Origin: Camelus ferus
Taxonomy: Eukaryota
Assembly (NCBI RefSeq): GCF_009834535.1
Contig: NC_045696.1
Span: forward strand, 2,296,001-2,360,000
Reading direction: 5' to 3'
Length of the DNA stretch: 64,000 bases
Positions 12,498 through 60,082 of this stretch are shown here, one piece after another. The first letter of the stretch is position 1. Every line of letters starts with the position of its first letter. Under the pieces are notes generated by a model. That model ran no database searches. It saw only the letters and a program-made list of their open reading frames with translations, and was not told where the DNA came from. Both the position numbers and the translations under genes were made by a program.

Positions 12498-12991
12498 CAC
12501 GCTGGCCTCCTCTTGCTCCTCCAAGGGCCGCTCAACCGTAACCGCGGGGCTGCAACAGGAAGCAGTGGGCGCCGGCTCCAGCCGCAGGGAGACGGTGTGA
12601 GCCCCTCCCCGAGGGCAGGCGGGGGAGGCCGGGGGGAGCCCGTGGGGACCCCGGTAAGGAAAGGCTTAACACGTAAAACGCTAAGCCCTGCACGGGCCTG
12701 AGCCGGCGTCTGGGGTTTTCTTCTCCCGAGCCTACGGCGGCAGGCGGGCCTCCGCCCCCGCCCCCTCCCTGCGGCCACCTCCCGGAATGGTCAGCCGCAG
12801 GCTGGAGCCCACTCCCCCCGCCCCAGGCCTCCCTGCCAGATTGCCGCTGCTCCTTCCTCCTCCTTTTCCTCCTCCCCCTCCTTCTCCCTCCCTCGGGGCA
12901 TCCTGACCCACAGGGACAGGGACTAAACCGGGAGCCCGCCAGGTGAGCAGCGCAAACACCTGCCTACCCAGCGCCCTCCTTCGCAGGGTCA

Positions 12992-13432
<441 letters not shown>

Positions 13433-14682
13433 TCAGCGTCTCCACCGCGCGCTGGGGCTCCGCTCCGGCGGCGCTCGGGATCCGCTCCGCTCCGGAGAGG
13501 TCCCGCTCGGCGCAGGCGCCCCTCTCGGACGACAGACCGCCTCCCTCTGACCTCAGCGCGGCTGGGAACCCGCGGGTCCCGCGCTGCGCGGGGGCGGGCC
13601 GGGGGCGGGGCCGGGCGGGGCATCGGCACAGGCTCCGCCCTCTCCGCCCCCACCCCGCCCCCGGGGGGATAGGGCAAGGGCAGATCTCAACCCCGCGCCA
13701 GGCGAACCAGTCGCGTCACTCTGCGCTCCTGGCACGTGGTGGCCACCCTCCATTCGCCGGGTTGCACTTTCGGTTTTACCCGGGAGGGCACTGCGGCGTC
13801 GGCATCCTGCATTCGATTCATTGAGATGTTCGTTCACTCCACGGAGGTCCGCCGCCCAGGCCTTGCGCCCCGCCTCTAACACTCCCCGGCGCTGCGGGAC
13901 CACGAGCGGGTCCAACAAGGATCCTCAAAGAGGAAACGTGGGGGCGCGGCGCCACGGGAGTGGGCGAGGGCAAGGGTGCCAGCGGAGGGGCAGCCGGTTT
14001 GGGAGTTGCCGAAACTGCCCTCCCCAGGGCCCAGCGGCGCCCAGTGCCCAGTCCCCACTCCAGGGCCTGCAGAGCTCGGAACCCAAGTGCAGTCCCCTGC
14101 CCCTGCGGCCACCGCGCGAACGGAGCTAGGACGCAGGAGCCCCGCGCCCGCCCCACAGGACGAAAGATCCATGCCTCACTTGCTCAGGGGGGCACCCCTG
14201 CCTAGGGTATGCGGGGCCACGAGGCCAGCGGGGACTCGACCTACCCCCGCAGAGGCCTGGGGAGTGGACACTTCCGCAGAGCCCGGAAACTCTTGGGGCC
14301 TCCAGGCGCCCAGTTCCCCAACCCCTACACTTGTCAGGCCTCAGGGTGTTCCAGGCCAGCCCGTGGCCGGGTGCCACCACCCCCCGCCCAGGGTCCTTGT
14401 TCAGAACCTGCGGCAAGGACAAACCCAATCGGGTGGCGCCCAGCCTTGCGGTCACCACCCTGCGCTTCACCTCCCACTCTCACCCCGCTGCCCACAGGAT
14501 TTCCTCCCTGCAGACATGGTGACTTCCGTCTCTCTGGTGGCCCAGGGGAGCTTGTTTAAATCTCTCTAGCCTGGTGAGAAGGCGGATACAGTGCCTGGGA
14601 CAGTGAGGAAGAGGACAGGGCCTACTGTCCAGATTTTAAAGAGGAAGTGCCGGGGTCAATAATAATCAACTGTTGGTTAGTA

Positions 14683-23384: not shown

Positions 23385-23990
23385 ACTTCTCTTTACATTT
23401 CTCACAAGGCAGGTCTGCTGGCAACAAATGCCCCAGGTTTTGTTTGTCAGAGAGTCTTTCTCCCTCCTCCACTTTTGAAGGAAGGTGTCACTGGGTACGG
23501 AGTGCACGCTGGTTCTTGTCCTTTGAACACGCCAACTATCTCACTGCACCTCCTCCTGCCCGCGTGGTTTCTGGGGACACGTCAGAGGTAATCCTCACCC
23601 TTGTGCCTCCACAGGCCAGCTGGTTTTTTCCTTCAACCTCTTTTAAGTTTCCCTCTGTCTTTGGTTTCCTGCAGTTTGCATATGACATGCCTGGGTGCAG
23701 TCTTTTCGGCATTTATCCCACTTGGTGTTCTCTTAGCTTCCTGGGTCTGTGCTTTGGTGTCTGCCACTGGTTTTAGACAATCATCAGCCATCGTTCCCTC
23801 AAATGTTTCTTCTGTTCCTTTCTCTCCTTTGTCTCCTTCTGGGGTTCCAGCTGCGCGTGGGCTACGCCTTTTGTAATTGTCCCATAGTTCCTGGATCTTC
23901 TGTTCAATGTCTTTCTCTGCTTTTGAGCTGGTTTCTACTGATGGGTCTTCAAGCTCCTCAAGTCTTTCCTTGGTCATGTCAGTCTGCTGA
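23385..23990 (-). mobile_element. Old LINE-1 ORF1 fragment
   Basis: ERLEELED...IQELWDNYKR...GTPEG...PRHVICKLQETKDR resembles the L1 ORF1p coiled-coil/RRM region. Confidence 0.85.
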
Positions 23991-24104
23991 TACCCCCAGG
24001 TGCAGCCTTGATGTGGCCCTGCGTGGCAGCCTTCTCTCATTTGGAGCTCTAGGTAACAGAGTTCAGCCTCCTATCTGTCTGTGAGTCGCTGTGTTGTGTT
24101 CCAC

Positions 24105-25160
24105 CATCAGAGAATGCAAAGAATATACAAAACATACAAAAATATACAAAAGATGTCCAAAATATACAAAGAATTCTTAAAACCTGATAATAAGAAAACA
24201 AACACCCCAATTAAAAATGGGCAAAAGACCTGAACAGACCCCTCACCAAAGAAAATACGCACGTAACAAGCATGTAAAGCTTTGCCAGCGTTATATGTCA
24301 CCGGGGAAGCGCAAACTAACGCAGCTATGGGGGATCATTTATCAGGATGGCTCAAGTTCAGAGCCCTGACAACACCAGATGCTGACGAGGGCGTGGAGCC
24401 ACAGGGACTCCCATTCACTGCTGGCGGGAACACAACATGGCACCTCCACTTTGGAACAGTCTGGCTGCTTTTAAAATAAAGCTACACGTAGTTTTGCCAT
24501 AGAGTTACATTCCTTGATATTTACCTAGTTGAAAACTTACGTCCACACAAAAACCTGCACATGGACATTTATAGCAGCTTTATTCACAACTGCCAAGGGT
24601 GAAAGCAACCAAGATGCCCCTCAGTAGTTGAATGGATGAGCAAACCGAGTGGAATGTTATTCTGAAGTTAAACAAATGAGCTATCAAAGCACAAATGACC
24701 TGGAGGAAACAGTGTGTATTGCTGAGTGGGAGAAGCCAGTCCGAAAAGGCTACAGGTGATTCTGACTGTGTGACACTTTGGAAAGGGTCAAACTACAGAG
24801 GTTGTAAGAGAAAATCGGTGGTTGCCGGGGGTAAGGGGGAGAGAGGGGTGAACAGGCGGAGCACACAGCATTTTTAGGGCAGTGAAACTGCTCTGTGTGA
24901 GACGTTAATGGTAGACACGTGTCATTACACATTTGTCAAAATCCATCGGATGTACACCACCAAGAGCGAACGCTGTGCAAACTGCAGGCTTTAGTTACTC
25001 ATAATGTTATAACGCCGTCTCACTGATTGTAACAAATGTACTACACTAATTCCAGGGGTTAACAACAGGGGACACCATGTGTGTGGGAGGGGTATATGGA
25101 CATTTTCTTTACTACGTCCTTAAGTTTTCTATAAATGTAGAACTATTCTAAAAACTGAGA
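24105..25160 (+). mobile_element. Old LINE-1 (L1M-type) 3' fragment
   Basis: AAAATGGGCAAAAGACCTGAACAGAC, GCAACCAAGATGCCCCTCAGTAG and L1M 3'UTR motifs. Confidence 0.85.
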
Positions 25161-25355
25161 TCTATGAATTAAAATAATACATGTTTATAAATAAAAATTG
25201 TGTGTAATTCTATGACCCATTGGTAGTATTTTGATGTAAACCTAGAATTTTTATGTTTCTTTTTAAGAGTAAAATAGATCTGTCACATTATTTTAGAACC
25301 TACCATTTTCATTAACATACGGTGGTATGCGTCTTCCCATGTCAAGGATAATTCT

Positions 25356-25479
25356 GGGGGGAGGGGAGGTAATCAGGTCTATTCATTCGTTTGTTCCAAA
25401 TGGACGTACCGGGGAGGCGGCCCGGGCCCCGCGCAGCGGCGCACGCGCTCGGCCGCTGAGCCGCGCCCCCCTCCCCCCC
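25356..25479 (-). mobile_element. tRNA-derived SINE copy with extreme GC enrichment
   Basis: Colinear with the reverse complement of the other SINE copies (GGAGGTAAT..AGGT..., AATGGA.GTAC.GGGGA, GCACGCGCTC..CC.CTGAGC). Confidence 0.8.
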
Positions 25480-26299
25480 GCCCCGCGCTCACTTCACGCC
25501 GCTGGTTTTCGTGGCAGTTGGACTCGGACACGTGGACGTTCTTATTTTTCTTCAGCAAATCCTGGTCCCAGTTAATGGATGTTTAGGTTGTCACTACGTT
25601 TTCACTCGAGTCTCACTTAACCTGCGTGAATTCAACTCCAGGCTCTGTTCTGGCCGCCCGAACTGACCAACAAACAGAGATATTTTTGTGTGGCATTAAT
25701 ATAATTCTCTAGGAGTGCATACGCCACACAAATTGACAGAAGATTGCGCTTCGCTTTGTTCTGATCTTCACCTAGCTCTGCTCATCATTTCATAAAACCG
25801 GGTTTCCAATGGCAACCCCTGATGGGATCTGAGTGGTCCATTCAGTGCGTCTCCGCCTGCATCTCTGGCTTCTGTCATTGCTCATTGTGGTGCTCAGCAC
25901 GTCAGCCCAAGCACAGTCCTCACCCAGCCACTCACGTGTCGAAAGCAGGTGTTCTAGTTACAAACGTGTTTCCCTTTATATTACAAAGCAGGGAAGCGTA
26001 GCAGGCTCATTTCAGGGAGGAGGTGTTCAGGGTTTGCTATAGGGGGACCTTGGGTCAGACAGGAGGAAGTATTTTGTTCAGGGATCACATCCTCCCCGCC
26101 AGACACAGGACCCTAAGAAGCTCGTCTCCTGACTGTGACCCCACCCCCGAAGCCGTCCCGCTCGCTTTGACACATCTCCCCACACATTCCTGTTGAGGGA
26201 ATGCGGACTGCCGGCTCTGTCACCGCTGGGGTTCAAAACCAGCCCCGCTGCTTCCTGCCTTACGCCACCTTTCTGTGCCTCGGCGCTCATTTGTGAAGA

Positions 26300-35407: not shown

Positions 35408-35601
35408 TCAGATGAAGTCCACAGCCGTCGGCCTTCTCTTTGGCGTGGCAGTCAGTGGCTTCTTGGTCCCCAGGGGGGTGCTGGCTGGCGAGCTCGTGGG
35501 GGTCTTCAGGACCCCGTGGAGGGGCCTCTGCTCGGGGTTGAAGGCCACCCGGGAGGGGCCTGTGGGGCTGACCAGGATACTCTTGTCTGTCTTCTTGAAT
35601 T
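35408..35601 (-). CDS. RRP1B: RRP1B exon 16, coding part with stop
   Basis: (E)FKKTDKSILVSPTGPSRVAFNPEQRPLHGVLKTPTSSPASTPLGTKKPLTATPKRRPTAVDFI*; TGA at 35408-35410. Confidence 0.96.
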
Positions 35602-36176
35602 CTGCCCCAGGTGAAAGCAAGGCACACATCAACAGGGTGCGATGCCTCTGTCCTGCCACCAGTCCCGCTCCCGCAGGCCCTGAGGGCCAGGACGCTCCCT
35701 CCCAGCAGGGCAGGACCCTGCACCAGGCCCCGCAGAGAGCGCCTGAGAGCTTTGGGAGAAAATGGAACTCACTAGCAAGGCTACTTCCCCCCACAGACAC
35801 CAGCGGGTCAGGTCCCGAGGAGGCACTCTTAGGGGTGGGGGTAGTGATGAAACACATGCCCAGTGAACCCCGTGTTTGGGTCTCGGATGAACCCTAGGTT
35901 TAAACCGTTGCAGGAGGAGCCTTTCCTTCCTGGCAGATCTGTTCCTCCCATTTTCTCCAGCTCTAAAGACAAGAGCTTCTCAGGTCCTCCCAGAGGGCCC
36001 TGGCCCACCGCACACACACAGGCACACACACACACAGACACGTTTCCTTTTGGTCCCTAAAATGAGCCAGTCCTAAACTCATTACGTACTTCTAGAAAGT
36101 TTGGTTTCCTTTCAAAAAACAAAACAAAACAAGTGAATTGCAACAGTATTAAAAGCAGTAAGATAGAGTGTCCTAG

Positions 36177-36276
36177 GTGGGGGGCACAGCTCAGTGGCAG
36201 AGCGAGTGCTCGGCATGCATGAGGTCCTGGGTTCCATCCCCGGTGCCACCATCAAGGGGGAAAAAAAAAAGAAAAA
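36177..36276 (+). mobile_element. tRNA-derived SINE in RRP1B intron 15 (antisense)
   Basis: CAGCTCAGTGGCAGAGC...GAGGTCCTGGGTTCCATCCC plus A tail. Confidence 0.8.
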
Positions 36277-36544
36277 GAGCGTCCCCCTTTCCCTTCTCTT
36301 GGCCAGGGAGGCTGCAAATCTCAGCGGAGGCAGCTGCAGCTGACAGACCCTTAGTCCCAAGCCAACACGGCTTTGGAATCCGGGCCAGCAGCCTGGAAGG
36401 CGGCGTCTCTTGGCGTCCTCTACCAGAGCCCTCCTTCCAGAAAACCGCCGCCTCCTGCCCGCTGCACCCCCGCTCCCACCAGACAGCCCAGGCCCTCTTC
36501 CACAGAGTGGACCCCACTGCCTCGAGGAGCAGACCTGCACTCAC

Positions 36545-56900: not shown

Positions 56901-57924
56901 GGATGAGAGTAAATTAAACCTGTCAGGGTGACGCCTAATAGAATTCAAGTCAGGAAGTTTGGCTTCACTCCTCCTAGCAGACTTCCCACGAAGTTGTACT
57001 TTCTTTTTCCTGTGTAGTCTTTTGTGATTTCTCTTCAAAATAAAACTAAGAGCGTCAGTACAGGGGGAAACATAAATTCTTTCAAGTAGACTCCAGATAT
57101 TAGTACTAGCGAGAAATAAATCAGACTTTATCTTAGTGCAATAAAAAACTCCATTTCACACTGGAGTTCATACCCTCCAGGGTTTACAGATTGTATTTTG
57201 AATCAGGTAAATGGAATCCTTCAACGGCACCCCAATGCAGTCAGAACCCATACTACAAAGCCTTGTGCGACCTGGCCACTGCCTACTTTTCCAACTTCAC
57301 GTCCAACATCGTCGCCCTCTCCCTTACTGATCTTCCAGCTCTTCCCGCCCGCCTGGGTTCAGATCTGCCGAATGCCGCCCTGGAGAGGCCTCCCTGGAAC
57401 AGCCGATGTCGAGCCGCTCCTTCTTTCCTCGGTTTTCATTTCCTTTTAATATTCCTCCCTAGATTTACTGAGACAAGTTCCTCGAGAGTAGCGATTCTAT
57501 CTTCTCTCTTGTAACCCATGCACCTTAAGGTGTTGGTCAGAGGAAGGAGTAACTCAGTGAAGAGAGCACCAGAATAAACCAGGCTAAGCCCAGGGATCCC
57601 ACGTGCAGGCTCGGGGTACGACAGACTGGGCCTATTCTCCGCTTCCCTACTCACCGCGACTTTCAGCACGCCACCTAACACTGCCGGCGGCTGTCTCTCA
57701 ACCGAAGAACCGGACGAGACGCAGCAGGGAGCGGACACGCAGAAGCACACGATAGGGGCGCGAGTCAGTGCCCCACGCTCTCCCCGCCCCGCCCGCGGCT
57801 CCCTTGGGCTGGCCCCCTCCCCACACCCTCTGCCCGGCTCCCCACCCCCGACCCCGCGGTCCCCGCCCACCCTGGGCCCCCCGGGCCCGGCCGCCACGTG
57901 CGCGGCGGACCGCCAGGCGCCCAC

Positions 57925-58054
57925 CTGTCTCCCTTTGCGTCTTCACGCTGATGTACTGGCGCAGCTTCTTCACCGCCCGGTCCCGGATGCCCTTCTCGTG
58001 GGACGCCAGCCGCTGAGCGAACTGGATCTCGGCCGGCTGCATGGCGGGGGCCAT
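57925..58054 (-). CDS. RRP1B: RRP1B exon 1 (130 nt; start of Nop52 domain)
   Basis: MAPAMQPAEIQFAQRLASHEKGIRDRAVKKLRQYISVKTQRET(G); GT donor at 57923-57924. Confidence 0.97.
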
Positions 58055-59235
58055 CGCGCCTGTTGGGGCATCCCCGGCCGCAGCCAGCCGCCGCCAAGCG
58101 CCCGCCGCTGTACAGCCCGGGCCGCGACTGCGCAGAAGGCGGCGGCGCGCCAGCTGATGGCGTCACAAAGGTGCCGCCGCTCGCAGGGCGTTCTGGGAGC
58201 GAGCGCGCCCGGCCCGGCAGTCGGCGGAGCAGCCCAGCCGGCGTTGGCGTCGCGCCTCCCCGCCTGCGCTGTCTCTCGGGCGCCAAAGCTCGGGGCTGTT
58301 GACGGCGAGGTTAGCCAGCGTTGAGTGTTGGCCAAGAAGAGGCGGGCAGCCAGTTTTAAGTGGTCTAGAATCTTTACGCCCACTCCGCAAAATTCCCCTC
58401 TGATCGGCTGCTGTTCCGCCAAATACGCGGAGCTGTCTTCGATCGTGTTGAGCTCCTGAGGCCGCCTGCGCCGGGTGGAAGCTGGGAAGACGGGCCGGCC
58501 TGGGTTTTTTGGCGGGATGCCTCGGGCAGCACCATCGAGGGCCCAGGTCTGGGTCCTGGGCCGGGGCAGGGGCGAGGATTTGGAGCGTGTGCTCCGGAGA
58601 CTCGGGCAGGGGCAGCTTGCGGCCGGTTTCAGACAGACGAAGTCTTACGTGTACGGTAACCCGTACATTTGAACCCACAGGCTGCACCGTAGTTTGCGAG
58701 CTCATTGGGCGTATTGGGGCAAGTGAATGGACCAGGTGGTGTCTCCGAGCTCATGGCGGTCATCTCAGTTCCTTACCAGCGGGCTGGACTAAGGCTCCCA
58801 CTGCACGCAGACCTCCGGAGCAGCCTGTTGTCAGAAAGCTTCGACCTTTGCTGATGGAGCTTGGAGCTGAGCGCGGGAGCGGGCCCCCTCGCTGTCCGTT
58901 CACTAGAATGTGTCGCCCCTTCGTCTAACATACCTCGCCAAACCGGAAAGGGCCGATTCGATTTATTCTACCAGACATTCAAACGTGGGTCTCACTGTCC
59001 TTATACTTTGCAGTTAACAGGTTTACAAACCCGGCTAAGCCAGAAGAGCCAACGCGGGATCCCGCAGACCCACCCCTTGTCCTTGGGGCCAAGAATGCTG
59101 CAAAAAAGCTACGCGGTCTGAGCCTCGCGGCTCTCTGTACCCGAGCCCCGGCGTGGACACTTCCCACGCTTTCTGGCGTGAGGGGTCAGAGGGCGCGCCG
59201 CCGCGCAGGCGCACAGAGCCGAGGCCGCGACGGCC

Positions 59236-59271
59236 ATGGGCGAGGCGGGCGCCCCTGAGGAGGCCTACCGG
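59236..59271 (+). CDS. HSF2BP: HSF2BP (MEILB2) first coding exon (36 nt)
   Basis: GCCATGG Kozak context; MGEAGAPEEAYR resembles recalled human MGEAGAAEEACR; GTCAGT donor. Confidence 0.9.
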
Positions 59272-60082
59272 GTCAGTACGGGGGCCGGGGTCGCCGCCCG
59301 TGGGTCCGAGCTGTCGCCGTCCACTCGCCTGTGCCGTGTCGCACCGCAGCCCGCCTGGGCCTCGCCCAGTGCGCTCGGGAAGGCCTTGGGCCCCGTCCGT
59401 GGACAGCGTGGCCCGGGCCGGCAGTGGGGGGGTGGCGACCCTCGCCTCAGAAACCGCGGGTGCAGGTCCAGGAGGCCGCGCGGTGGCGCGGTGGGCCAGC
59501 TCCTGTGCCACCCTGGGCCCGGGCCGCCCTCGAGGCCCTAACGCTGTTTCGGCATCGCGGTGCCCGGCTGCTGCAGCCGCTGCACGGGATGCTGGAGCAG
59601 GAGCTGGACTTGGGAGCCACACCTGGATTCAGATCCTGGTGTGCCCCTGGTACTGGTGTTACTGTGAGTCTCCTCGCCCCGCTGTGCCCTGGTTCCTGAC
59701 CCGGACAGCCTTGAGGGTCGTGGGGAATACGAAGTCAGGTGGCCCGCAAAGGGCTGGCGCTCCCACTGGGAATCCAGTAAAATTCCTTTTCCTCCTGATT
59801 AGCTTGGCTCTGGAATGTTAAGAAAATATTGCTGGCATTTTCTTTGGCTTTTAGGAATAGGGCCTCGTTTGTACTTAGAAAAAATTGGCTCGCAATTTGA
59901 AGGCTGGAGCTTCAGCTCTCAGGATATAATATGCATAGCAGAGGGCACACGTTTTAGAGACAATTAATGAGCACACACACAAAAAAGAGGCCTTAAAGAA
60001 AAGGAAGCCAGCTGACTTGGGCTGCTAATTTCAGTCATCTGAAGGGAAGTGTAATAATCTTAAGATCTGCTTGTCCTTTTAG

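What the first reader, a model, noticed from the sequence alone, without database searches (positions are those of the whole stretch)
25356..25560. SINE rewritten almost only by A/T-to-G/C changes: candidate fossil GC-biased gene conversion hotspot
Seen: aligned by eye to the other SINE copies here (family ACTGGGGATTGAACCCAGGACCTCGTGCATGCTAAGCACGCGCTCTACCACTGAGCTACA versus this copy ACCGGGGAGGCGGCCCGGGCCCCGCGCAGCGGCGCACGCGCTCGGCCGCTGAGCCGCG), the ~70-nt head has roughly 17 weak-to-strong changes, 2 G/C swaps and no strong-to-weak change. The tail also shows several T-to-C changes. Because the changes include T>C, A>G, T>G and A>C, ADAR or APOBEC editing cannot explain them. The result is a new CpG-dense patch in AT-rich flanks. 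Known: this unidirectional pattern is the signature of gBGC at recombination hotspots. Inference: a narrow, intense hotspot, possibly directed by a PRDM9 allele recognising the SINE, once sat here.
Basis: partly seen in the sequence, partly recalled or inferred. Interest (0 to 1): 0.75.

Follow-up and report, generated by a model that had tools for sequence, protein, structure and literature searches.

The report
SINE copy rewritten toward G and C
One old camel-type SINE copy has had about three quarters of its A/T positions turned into G/C, making an isolated 140-base CpG-rich spike that is most simply read as the scar of very local GC-biased gene conversion near a chromosome end.

Summary
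A tRNA-Ala-derived camelid-type SINE lies on the minus strand at 25356-~25476. Against 14 other copies, its head shows 19 A/T-to-G/C changes at 26 aligned A/T sites, 1 G/C swap and 1 alignment-ambiguous reverse change. The other copies show 0-8 and 1-6.

It is not a GC-rich subfamily. The GC-rich part hits only itself in the 2.09-Gb genome. Of 10,459 copies with the same 33-nt backbone, it alone has all 10 test sites converted.

The patch at 25387-25521 is the only stretch of at least 80% GC outside the large CpG islands, between flanks of 31% and 45% GC.

The setting fits GC-biased gene conversion:
- It lies 2.3 Mb from the end of a 122-Mb scaffold.
- The window has 53.5% GC.
- A neighbouring L1 fragment has twice the usual A/T-to-G/C load.

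Editing, general hypermutation and RNA-structure selection are rejected.

The idea that a PRDM9 allele recognises the SINE is not supported, because no other copy is affected and the patch is centred on the SINE/flank junction.

Raw reads, orthologues and polymorphism could not be examined, so assembly error and timing stay open.

The parts
25356..25407 (-). 3' tail of the SINE copy (family-specific A/T-rich tail, read here as its reverse complement)
   Evidence: It aligns to the tails of 14 other copies. Over 47 aligned positions there are 7 W>S, 1 S>W, 1 W>W and 1 S>S. The bias is moderate, close to the regional level.
25408..25476 (-). tRNA-Ala-derived head of the SINE copy, almost saturated with A/T-to-G/C changes
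   Evidence: 19 W>S at 26 aligned W sites, and 39 of 41 S sites unchanged. It is unique in the genome. The Rfam tRNA model scores five other window copies at 29.7-47.4 bits and no longer finds this copy even at E<=10.
25477..25545 (.). CpG-dense unique flank that continues the GC patch beyond the SINE 5' end
   Evidence: The 50-bp bins 25450-25499 and 25500-25549 hold 8 and 5 CpG. 25476-25900 has no other copy in the genome, so its changes cannot be polarised here.
25387..25521 (.). GC spike: union of the 100-bp windows with GC of at least 0.80 (maximum 0.85)
   Evidence: It is the only such segment in the 64 kb that is not inside or beside a large GC-rich block. Its 300-bp flanks have GC 0.31 and 0.45. 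25405-25500 has GC 0.85 and 18 CpG.
25192..25355 (.). A/T-rich spacer between the L1 3' end and the SINE tail
   Evidence: 50-bp bins have GC 0.14-0.42. No repeat alignment covers it, so it is not polarised.
24700..25191 (+). Old L1 3'-end fragment used as an internal yardstick of the regional substitution bias
   Evidence: It has 895 first-look candidates in the genome, and 29 paralogues were aligned. This copy has W>S 62/285 and S>W 29/164, against 582/4914 and 436/2891 pooled for the paralogues. The last bin, 25100-25191, runs the other way (W>S 7/53, S>W 9/19).

Best explanation
This is a dead copy of the camelid tRNA-Ala-derived SINE. The copy and about 70 bases of unique flank (roughly 25400-25545) sat for a long time in a very narrow focus of GC-biased fixation.

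Proposed mechanism (inferred, not shown):
1. Meiotic double-strand breaks recur at or near the SINE/flank junction.
2. They are repaired through short non-crossover heteroduplex tracts.
3. A:T/G:C mismatches in those tracts are repaired preferentially to G:C.
4. New W>S alleles are therefore over-transmitted and fixed, and S>W alleles, including CpG decay, are rejected.

The result is a 140-base spike of about 85% GC with no CpG depletion, set in a region that already shows a milder bias of the same kind.

A likely reinforcing step, also inferred, is that the growing CpG density kept the patch unmethylated. Unmethylated CpG-rich DNA is where PRDM9-independent breaks fall in many mammals, so the spike could have fed its own growth.

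The element has no demonstrated present function. Its Pol III promoter and tRNA-like fold are gone.
For: Direction and spectrum:
- 19 W>S against at most 1 S>W in the head. Both strands are affected (A>G 8, T>C 6) and transversions occur (T>G 4, A>C 1), giving 14 transitions to 5 transversions.
- The ancestral state is secure. The family consensus, not this copy, fits the tRNA model.

Bias rather than a raised mutation rate:
- Other copies show W>S:S>W of 53:52. An unbiased speed-up would have given about as many S>W changes as W>S, and I see at most 1.
- All three ancestral CpGs are kept, and 24 CpG stand in 166 bp with observed/expected 1.25.
- Rate estimate: W>S 1.31 per W site against 0.145 in other copies (9-fold). 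S>W is 0.26-fold. The implied equilibrium GC is 0.98.

Uniqueness:
- The 96-bp GC-rich part has only a self hit at E<=10.
- Among 10,459 copies sharing the 33-nt backbone (reversed-pattern control 0), it is the only one with all 10 W sites as G/C. None has 1-2 mismatches and 7 have 3.

Regional context expected of gBGC:
- The window lies 2.3 Mb from the end of a 122.45-Mb scaffold and has GC 0.535 and CpG observed/expected 0.47.
- The adjacent L1 fragment has W>S 62/285 against 582/4914 in paralogues (odds ratio 2.07, p = 5e-6). Equilibrium GC is 0.65 against 0.44.
- I counted by eye the 99 other copies listed. G/C states at the 10 sites average 2.4 at 0-5 Mb, 1.3 at 5-10 Mb and 0.9 at 10-16 Mb from the scaffold end.
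- The 7 next most converted copies (9-13 W>S, 1-3 S>W) sit in loci with GC 0.41-0.61 and CpG observed/expected 0.37-0.65. Twenty-nine L1-centred control loci average 0.39 and 0.20.

Precedent in print:
- HAR1 has 18 fixed differences, all W>S (PMC2873926, passages read).
- Dog hotspots show sharp GC peaks attributed to gBGC at stably unmethylated CpG islands (PMC4350167, passages read).
- PRDM9-independent hotspots are active in most of 52 mammals (PMC11161765, abstract and section 8 read).
Against: - Nothing here measures recombination. There is no map, no polymorphism and no orthologue, so fixation bias cannot be told from a local W>S mutation bias.
- The patch is far narrower (about 100-150 bp) than the kilobase-scale tracts usually described. 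The bias flips within about 200 bp: the L1 bin 25100-25191 has W>S 7/53 and S>W 9/19.
- A SINE copy 3.2 kb away is ordinary (4 W>S, 2 S>W).
- The degree of conversion is far outside the regional distribution. The maximum is 5 of 10 in the 99 listed copies, and 19/26 has p of about 3e-6 even at the highest rate seen elsewhere. An extra, unexplained local intensifier is therefore needed.
- The reference sequence of the patch was not verified in reads.
- A few W>S states may predate insertion.
Confidence: 0.55

Rival explanations
1. Local W>S mutation bias unrelated to meiotic recombination. Examples would be error-prone repair synthesis or nucleotide-pool effects at a chronically open, unmethylated or G-run/C-run-rich site, with CpG kept because the patch is unmethylated.
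For: - The patch is extremely narrow and sharply bounded, which kilobase-scale gBGC tracts are not.
- G-runs and C-runs flank it on both sides.
- CpG observed/expected of 1.1-1.25 fits lack of germline methylation.
- No data here separate mutation bias from fixation bias.
Against: - I know of no mutational process that gives only W>S of all four types on both strands while S sites stay 39/41 unchanged (the absence of such a process is from my own knowledge).
- The same direction of bias, at lower strength, extends to the L1 fragment and to SINE copies across the first megabases of the scaffold. This is the known footprint of recombination-linked bias.
Confidence: 0.13
2. Positive selection: the SINE head was exapted as a small CpG-island-type regulatory element (promoter, enhancer or insulator), and G/C gains were selected.
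For: - 25301-25650 meets the sequence criteria of a CpG island (350 bp, GC 0.56, observed/expected 1.05).
- It lies in the intergenic space about 10 kb downstream of the RRP1B stop codon.
- A run reading GGGGCGGGG on the minus strand resembles an Sp1-type GC box. I recognised this motif from memory.
Against: - 19 of 26 W sites changed regardless of position. This looks like a compositional drive, not tuning of particular binding sites.
- The RNA fold is no better than shuffled sequence (z +0.4 to +0.8), while ordinary copies give z -1.3 to -3.1.
- No RNA family or Pfam match lies over the patch.
- No expression or chromatin data were available.
Confidence: 0.12
3. Assembly, consensus or polishing artefact: the real locus carries an ordinary SINE head.
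For: - The patch could not be checked in reads.
- An 85% GC stretch is hard to sequence.
- An exact 55-nt search of metagenome contigs found nothing. Little was expected from that search.
Against: - An artefact would have to make about 26 directed base substitutions while leaving 39 of 41 G/C positions, the reading register and both flanks intact. Known long-read errors are mainly indels (my own knowledge).
- 20 of 23 listed runs from 8 studies and two organism labels hold 84-92% of the sampled words of window:22500-28500. The patch is only about 2% of those words, so this does not test it.
Confidence: 0.07
4. The G/C states were acquired in one step. Either the copy came from a rare GC-rich source gene or subfamily, or it was patched by ectopic conversion or templated repair from a GC-rich homologous donor.
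For: - Several of the sites vary among family members. Single other copies share up to 5 of the 10 test states (hand count).
- Copies such as L007 share some states with the target.
Against: - No second copy or donor exists in the assembly. There is only a self hit for the 96-bp core at E<=10.
- It is 1 of 10,459 backbone-matched copies, with no intermediate at 8-9 of 10 sites.
- The tail and the unique flank share the bias or the CpG density. A donor limited to the SINE would not explain that.
Confidence: 0.05
5. RNA or DNA editing of the SINE (ADAR A-to-I or APOBEC C-to-U), before or after insertion.
For: Clustered, directional changes in a retroelement are what editing produces. 14 of the 19 changes are A>G or T>C.
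Against: - A>G (8) and T>C (6) occur on the same strand in similar numbers.
- 5 changes are transversions (T>G 4, A>C 1).
- There is no G>A and only one alignment-ambiguous C>T, which is the APOBEC direction.
Confidence: 0.02

Closest known systems
Biased clustered W>S substitution tracts attributed to gBGC (for example human HAR1 and HAR2, 'gBGC tracts')
   Same: A short stretch holds a dense cluster of changes that are essentially all A/T to G/C, in a GC-rich region near a chromosome end. HAR1 has 18 fixed differences, all W>S (PMC2873926, passages read).
   Different: - Here the substrate is a neutral retroelement, not a conserved element, and the ancestral state comes from the repeat consensus, not from outgroups.
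- Conversion is nearer to saturation (19 of 26 W sites in about 70 nt).
- RNA structure is degraded rather than strengthened.
- The time span is unknown and may be tens of millions of years, not one short branch.
GC peaks at stable, PRDM9-independent recombination hotspots (dog, and many other mammals at unmethylated CpG-rich sites)
   Same: A sharp local GC and CpG peak stands above A/T-richer flanks, CpG is kept and the bias is W>S. The proposed loop is unmethylated CpG-rich DNA, then breaks, then gBGC, then more CpG (PMC4350167 passages; PMC11161765 abstract and section 8).
   Different: - Those peaks are described at CpG islands and promoters, and profiles are drawn over hundreds of bases to kilobases. 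This one is about 140 bp, intergenic and seeded in a SINE.
- Whether this species uses such hotspots was not established. The main text of PMC11161765 has no occurrence of 'camel', 'Camelus' or 'Vicugna', and its supplementary species tables were not seen.
vic-1, the camelid tRNA-Ala-related simple SINE
   Same: The head is homologous to a tRNA-Ala-like sequence. ARAGORN calls three window copies tRNA-Ala and Rfam's tRNA model hits five. The tail is the family-specific A/T-rich one, and there are thousands of copies in this genome. SINEBase lists vic-1 as a simple SINE of camels (PMC3531059, passage read).
   Different: - This copy has lost the tRNA-like fold and the box-B region.
- I did not compare it with the published vic-1 consensus. 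The family name rests on the SINEBase passage and my recollection.
PRDM9-directed hotspots centred on repeat-borne motifs (as known for some human and mouse alleles; recalled)
   Same: A narrow centre, and short non-crossover tracts that could confine the bias to about 100-200 bp.
   Different: A motif carried by the SINE should mark many copies, and PRDM9 hotspots erode their motif and die quickly. Here 1 of 10,459 comparable copies is affected, and the patch centre lies at the SINE/flank junction.

Membership tests
Camelid tRNA-Ala-derived SINE (vic-1 type) | Head homologous to the tRNA-derived head of the family | tested here: met
   39 of 41 G/C positions of the family consensus are identical over 67 aligned positions. 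A random sequence of 85% GC could not give this.
Camelid tRNA-Ala-derived SINE (vic-1 type) | Family-specific A/T-rich tail next to the head | tested here: met
   37 of 47 aligned tail positions are identical to the consensus. Genome hits to this copy's tail reach 83% identity.
Camelid tRNA-Ala-derived SINE (vic-1 type) | Recognisable tRNA-like structure and Pol III boxes | tested here: not met
   The Rfam tRNA model finds five other window copies (29.7-47.4 bits) but not this one at E<=10. The box-B region is rewritten. This is expected of a decayed copy and does not argue against descent from the family.
Camelid tRNA-Ala-derived SINE (vic-1 type) | Target-site duplication flanking the insertion | tested here: inconclusive
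   The best direct repeat between the flanks is no better than in shuffles: 244 of 500 shuffles match it, and 389 of 500 when W>S is allowed as a match.
Camelid tRNA-Ala-derived SINE (vic-1 type) | Match to the published vic-1 consensus | not tested
   No published consensus was at hand. The name comes from a SINEBase passage and my recollection.
gBGC tract / recombination-driven biased substitution cluster | Strong excess of W>S over S>W against a neutral yardstick | tested here: met
   19:1 against 53:52 in 14 other copies, Fisher p = 1.2e-4.
gBGC tract / recombination-driven biased substitution cluster | All W>S types, both strands (not one enzyme's signature) | tested here: met
   A>G 8, T>C 6, T>G 4, A>C 1.
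gBGC tract / recombination-driven biased substitution cluster | Lies in a region of high recombination | tested here: inconclusive
   Only proxies are available:
- It lies 2.3 Mb from the end of a 122-Mb scaffold, with no telomere repeats at that end.
- The window has GC 0.535 and CpG observed/expected 0.47.
- The L1 fragment has equilibrium GC 0.65 against 0.44 in paralogues.
- G/C states in SINE copies rise toward the scaffold end (hand count).
No recombination map was available.
gBGC tract / recombination-driven biased substitution cluster | Fixation bias (derived W>S alleles at higher frequency than S>W) | not testable with these tools
   No population data.
gBGC tract / recombination-driven biased substitution cluster | Changes polarised to a lineage by orthologues | not testable with these tools
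   No other camelid or mammalian genome is held ('no relatives here'). Polarity rests on the repeat consensus and the tRNA model.
gBGC tract / recombination-driven biased substitution cluster | Usual tract scale of about a kilobase | tested here: not met
   The spike is 135 bp at GC of at least 0.8. The CpG-dense part is about 145 bp. The bias reverses within about 200 bp on the left.
CpG island (sequence definition: at least 200 bp, GC at least 0.5, CpG observed/expected at least 0.6; criteria recalled) | Length, GC and CpG observed/expected thresholds | tested here: met
   25301-25650 is 350 bp with GC 0.56 and observed/expected 1.05. The core is only about 140 bp.
CpG island (sequence definition: at least 200 bp, GC at least 0.5, CpG observed/expected at least 0.6; criteria recalled) | Unmethylated in the germline | not testable with these tools
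   No methylation data. The lack of CpG depletion is compatible with it.
   Only 1 of 10,459 backbone-matched copies is fully converted, none is at 8-9 of 10 sites and 7 show 3 mismatches. The seven other window copies are ordinary.
   The SSXRD (PF09514) search of the genome found nothing, but it also rang in none of the 14 control genomes. The test has no power.
ADAR / APOBEC hyper-editing | One change type on one strand (A>G, or C>T/G>A) | tested here: not met
   Four W>S types occur, balanced between strands. There is no G>A and one ambiguous C>T.

The most novel reading that the evidence does not exclude
A self-sustaining micro-hotspot was born at a SINE/flank junction. In this reading a long-lived, PRDM9-independent break site only about 140 bp wide drove its own sequence to an equilibrium GC near 0.98. 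That made a new CpG island out of junk DNA, and the growing CpG density kept the site unmethylated and hot.

If so, it would be the narrowest and most saturated gBGC footprint I know of. It would also show that repeat consensus sequences can be used to date and census such stable hotspots genome-wide in species without recombination maps.
Probability: 0.22. Interest if true: 0.6.

Novelty: new member of a known kind. Interest (0 to 1): 0.42.

Why it matters
Dense all-W>S clusters are central to a long argument over whether 'accelerated' regions reflect adaptation or biased gene conversion. Here the substrate is a dead SINE whose ancestral sequence is known from thousands of sister copies, so selection on an old function can be set aside and the process is seen almost pure.

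Three things make it a useful test locus for gBGC strength and for how long hotspots live in mammals:
- The bias is very strong: 9-fold W>S excess, S>W at a quarter of normal, implied equilibrium GC 0.98.
- It is confined to about 140 bases.
- It occurs once among more than 10,000 comparable copies.

It bears in particular on whether stable PRDM9-independent hotspots can create CpG islands from nothing. It is one locus, unverified in reads and without comparative data, so for now it is a good example and not a discovery.

Tried and rejected
1. Read-level check. One search listed 23 runs. Twenty of them (8 studies, two organism labels) hold 84-92% of the sampled words of window:22500-28500, but the patch is about 2% of that stretch, so this says nothing about it. 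No reads or contigs were seen.
2. Exact 55-nt search of metagenome contigs for the patch: 0 matches.
3. Two open frames across the patch were searched in the 5.8-billion protein collection, in the hope of ORFs called on other camelid assemblies. Neither gave a hit at E<=0.001.
4. Second census pattern for the other half of the head: 130 matches against 126 for the reversed control, so it is non-specific and was discarded.
5. Target-site duplication as an internal way to polarise the right flank: not better than shuffles.
6. The right flank 25476-25900 has no paralogue, so the right-hand limit of the bias could not be polarised.
7. RNA-structure selection: the patch folds no better than shuffles (z +0.41 to +0.83). 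Ordinary copies give z -1.27 to -3.09. Rejected.
8. Rfam at E<=10 over 25250-25650 gave only a chance 9.3-bit lncRNA hit. Pfam on 148 of the window's 405 open frames of at least 70 aa found nothing over the patch. The 148 were all frames within 20-31 kb plus all frames of at least 130 aa elsewhere. The only hits were an L1 ORF1 fragment and the RRP1B first exon.
9. PRDM9 presence via Pfam SSXRD: no hit, and the control also rang nowhere, so the test is uninformative.
10. Earlier notes of this scan: nothing for this place, for relatives or for keywords.
11. GC-rich subfamily: rejected.
12. General hypermutation: rejected, because S>W did not rise.
13. Literature. Searches on biased gene conversion, clustered substitutions, GC peaks, Alu/SINE and CpG islands listed no paper on a single SINE copy converted in this way. 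I read only listings plus the passages cited, so this is weak evidence of absence.
Full report
WHAT IS THERE

The window is G000:C1:2296001-2360000 of a 2.09-Gb genome in 2,043 contigs. C1 is a 122.45-Mb scaffold, so the window lies 2.3 Mb from its end. The first 3 kb of C1 carry no telomere repeats.

RRP1B coding exons run on the minus strand from 58054 to 35411. Those exons are 100% identical to Camelus proteins and 90-96% identical to the alpaca protein. The genome is therefore camel-like, and the finding lies about 10 kb downstream of the RRP1B stop codon, in intergenic DNA.

The window holds at least seven other copies of a tRNA-Ala-like SINE. The copy in the finding lies on the minus strand. 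Its A/T-rich tail is at 25356-25407 and its tRNA-derived head at 25408-~25476. SINEBase lists vic-1 as the simple SINE of camels (PMC3531059, passage read). I did not compare this copy with the published consensus.

THE OBSERVATION

I aligned the copy with 14 others: 7 from the window, and 7 from genome loci that one search had found through the tail.

Head:
- 19 W>S changes at 26 aligned A/T sites (A>G 8, T>C 6, T>G 4, A>C 1).
- One G>C, one C>T in the ambiguous terminal C-run, and two one-base gaps.
- 39 of 41 G/C sites are unchanged, including all three ancestral CpGs.
- The other copies have 0-8 W>S and 1-6 S>W each, pooled 53:52, with 8 W>W.
- Fisher p = 1.2e-4. The chance of 19 or more of 26 is 8e-12 at the family rate and 3e-6 at the highest rate seen in any other copy.

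Tail: 7 W>S (6 of them T>C), 1 S>W, 1 W>W and 1 S>S over 47 positions.

Polarity is secure. The consensus-type copies fit Rfam's tRNA model (29.7-47.4 bits), while the finding's copy is not found even at E<=10.

Composition:
- 25380-25545 holds 24 CpG, with GC 0.69 and CpG observed/expected 1.25.
- 25387-25521 is the only stretch of at least 80% GC in the window outside large GC-rich blocks. Its 300-bp flanks have GC 0.31 and 0.45.

NOT A SUBFAMILY

- The whole 205 bases match other places in the genome only through the tail or at 72-75% identity.
- The 96-bp GC-rich core matches only itself at E<=10.
- I wrote a pattern for a 33-nt indel-free segment of the head, with G/C required at the ten consensus A/T sites. 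It finds 8 places at up to 3 mismatches, and the reversed control finds 0. The finding's copy is the only one at 0 mismatches, none has 1 or 2, and seven have 3.
- The same backbone with any base at those ten sites occurs 10,459 times, again with 0 for the control.
- One search listed 100 places, all on C1 between 0.2 and 16.1 Mb, and left 10,359 unlisted. I counted G/C states by eye in the 99 copies other than the target. The maximum is 5 of 10.
- Some sites vary in the family, so a few of the 19 changes may be inherited.

The seven runners-up have 9-13 W>S and 1-3 S>W. They lie in loci with GC 0.41-0.61 and CpG observed/expected 0.37-0.65. Twenty-nine L1-centred control loci average 0.39 and 0.20.

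REGIONAL CONTEXT

The window as a whole has GC 0.535 and CpG observed/expected 0.47.

The left neighbour, 24700-25191, is an old L1 3' end with 895 first-look candidates in the genome. Against a consensus of 29 paralogues:
- It has W>S 62/285 and S>W 29/164, against 582/4914 and 436/2891 pooled for the paralogues.
- The W>S odds ratio is 2.07, p = 5e-6.
- Equilibrium GC is 0.65 for 24700-25099, against 0.44 genome-wide.
- Its last bin, 25100-25191, runs the other way (W>S 7/53, S>W 9/19, equilibrium GC 0.18), and 25150-25299 is 14-32% GC.

The bias therefore flips within about 200 bp of the spike. A SINE copy 3.2 kb to the right is ordinary (4 W>S, 2 S>W).

In my hand count, G/C states at the ten sites average 2.4 at 0-5 Mb (33 copies), 1.3 at 5-10 Mb (29 copies) and 0.9 at 10-16 Mb (37 copies) from the scaffold end. 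This is a gradient of the kind expected from recombination-linked bias toward chromosome ends.

The right flank, 25476-25900, is unique, so it cannot be polarised. It carries 8 and 5 CpG in its first two 50-bp bins. The CpG-dense patch thus spans about 25400-25545 and is centred near 25470, at the SINE/flank junction.

WHAT IT IS MOST LIKELY

The pattern has four features:
- All four W>S types occur, on both strands, at 14 transitions to 5 transversions.
- S>W is suppressed to about a quarter of normal.
- CpG is fully retained and many new CpGs appear.
- A weaker bias of the same direction runs through the surrounding region.

This is what GC-biased gene conversion predicts and what a plain rise in mutation rate does not. 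Taken over the copy's life, the W>S rate is about 9 times that of sister copies. On the standard fixation formula that equals a population-scaled bias of about 9, and the implied equilibrium GC is 0.98. The formula's use here is my inference.

The width, about 140 bp, is on the scale I recall for mammalian non-crossover tracts. It is much narrower than the kilobase-scale tracts usually reported.

Near-saturation argues for a long-lived site. Published work makes such sites plausible outside canids:
- PRDM9-independent hotspots at unmethylated CpG-rich loci appear active in about three quarters of 52 mammals and are more stable than PRDM9 hotspots (PMC11161765, abstract and section 8).
- Dog hotspots show sharp GC peaks ascribed to gBGC at stably unmethylated islands (PMC4350167, passages).

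A feedback loop is therefore my preferred detail: more CpG, then less methylation, then more breaks, then more W>S. Every step of that loop is inferred.

A PRDM9 allele that recognised the SINE should have marked many copies. Only one of 10,459 comparable copies is converted. The window's other copies are ordinary. The patch is centred on the junction, not on the SINE. I could not establish whether PRDM9 is intact in this genome, because the SSXRD search had no power.

RIVALS

- Editing is excluded by the spectrum.
- Selection for RNA structure is excluded. The patch folds no better than shuffles (z +0.41 to +0.83), while ordinary copies give z -1.27 to -3.09.
- Selection for a regulatory role cannot be excluded. 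The 350 bases 25301-25650 meet CpG-island sequence criteria. However, position-blind conversion of 19 of 26 sites looks compositional.
- A local non-recombinational W>S mutation bias cannot be separated from fixation bias without polymorphism data.
- A one-step origin from a donor lacks any donor.
- Assembly error was not tested. The run listing covers 6 kb, of which the patch is about 2%, so it is no evidence either way. I rate artefact as unlikely, because about 26 directed substitutions with an intact register and intact G/C positions do not resemble any sequencing error I know of.

COMPARISON AND VERDICT

The closest known things are the all-W>S clusters of human accelerated regions and the GC peaks of stable hotspots. 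HAR1 has 18 fixed differences, all W>S (PMC2873926, passage).

This case differs in four ways:
- It sits in a dead SINE.
- It is narrower.
- It is closer to saturation.
- Its structure is degraded rather than strengthened.

It is a new and unusually clean member of a known kind, not a new kind.

My literature searches listed no report of a single SINE copy converted like this. I read only the listings and the cited passages, and the supplements of PMC11161765 were not seen.

The decisive work is read validation, camelid orthologues, allele-frequency spectra and germline methylation or DSB maps. None of it could be done here.

Noticed in passing
window 35411-58054 (minus strand): RRP1B gene. 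tblastn of camelid RRP1B proteins places about 13 coding exons from 58054 (first exon, inside the CpG island 57551-59650) down to the stop at 35411. The exons are 100% identical to Camelus proteins and less so to the alpaca protein.
   Followed up: partly
window 12501-14050: A second large CpG island (1,550 bp, GC 0.73, CpG observed/expected 0.79). No Pfam hit in its long open frames. It is probably the promoter of the next gene, which I did not identify.
   Followed up: no
window, whole: The window is unusually GC- and CpG-rich for a mammal (GC 0.535, CpG observed/expected 0.47). Thirty-four separate 200-bp-scale segments pass GC>=0.55 and observed/expected>=0.65.
   Followed up: partly
G000:C1, first 16 Mb: SINE copies carry more G/C states at consensus A/T sites the closer they lie to the scaffold end. 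By hand count from the listing, the means are 2.4, 1.3 and 0.9 of 10 sites at 0-5, 5-10 and 10-16 Mb. Subfamily age structure was not controlled.
   Followed up: partly
window 36160-36290 (SINE copy, plus-strand sense): This copy, inside the RRP1B gene, is the most W>S-shifted of the other window copies. Its head has 8 W>S against 3 S>W and its tail has 12 W>S. It is a milder case of the same drift.
   Followed up: no
window 23636-24070 (minus strand): Fragment of an L1 ORF1 (Pfam Transposase_22, E = 2.7e-5), in the opposite orientation to the L1 3' end at 24700-25191.
   Followed up: no
window 24117-24170: Short A-rich tandem repeat, period 20 (or 10), 2.7 copies.
   Followed up: no
L042-L048 (seven genome loci): Seven other SINE copies are partly converted (9-13 W>S, 1-3 S>W in the head). 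All lie in loci with raised CpG observed/expected of 0.37-0.65. They are candidates for weaker versions of the same process.
   Followed up: partly
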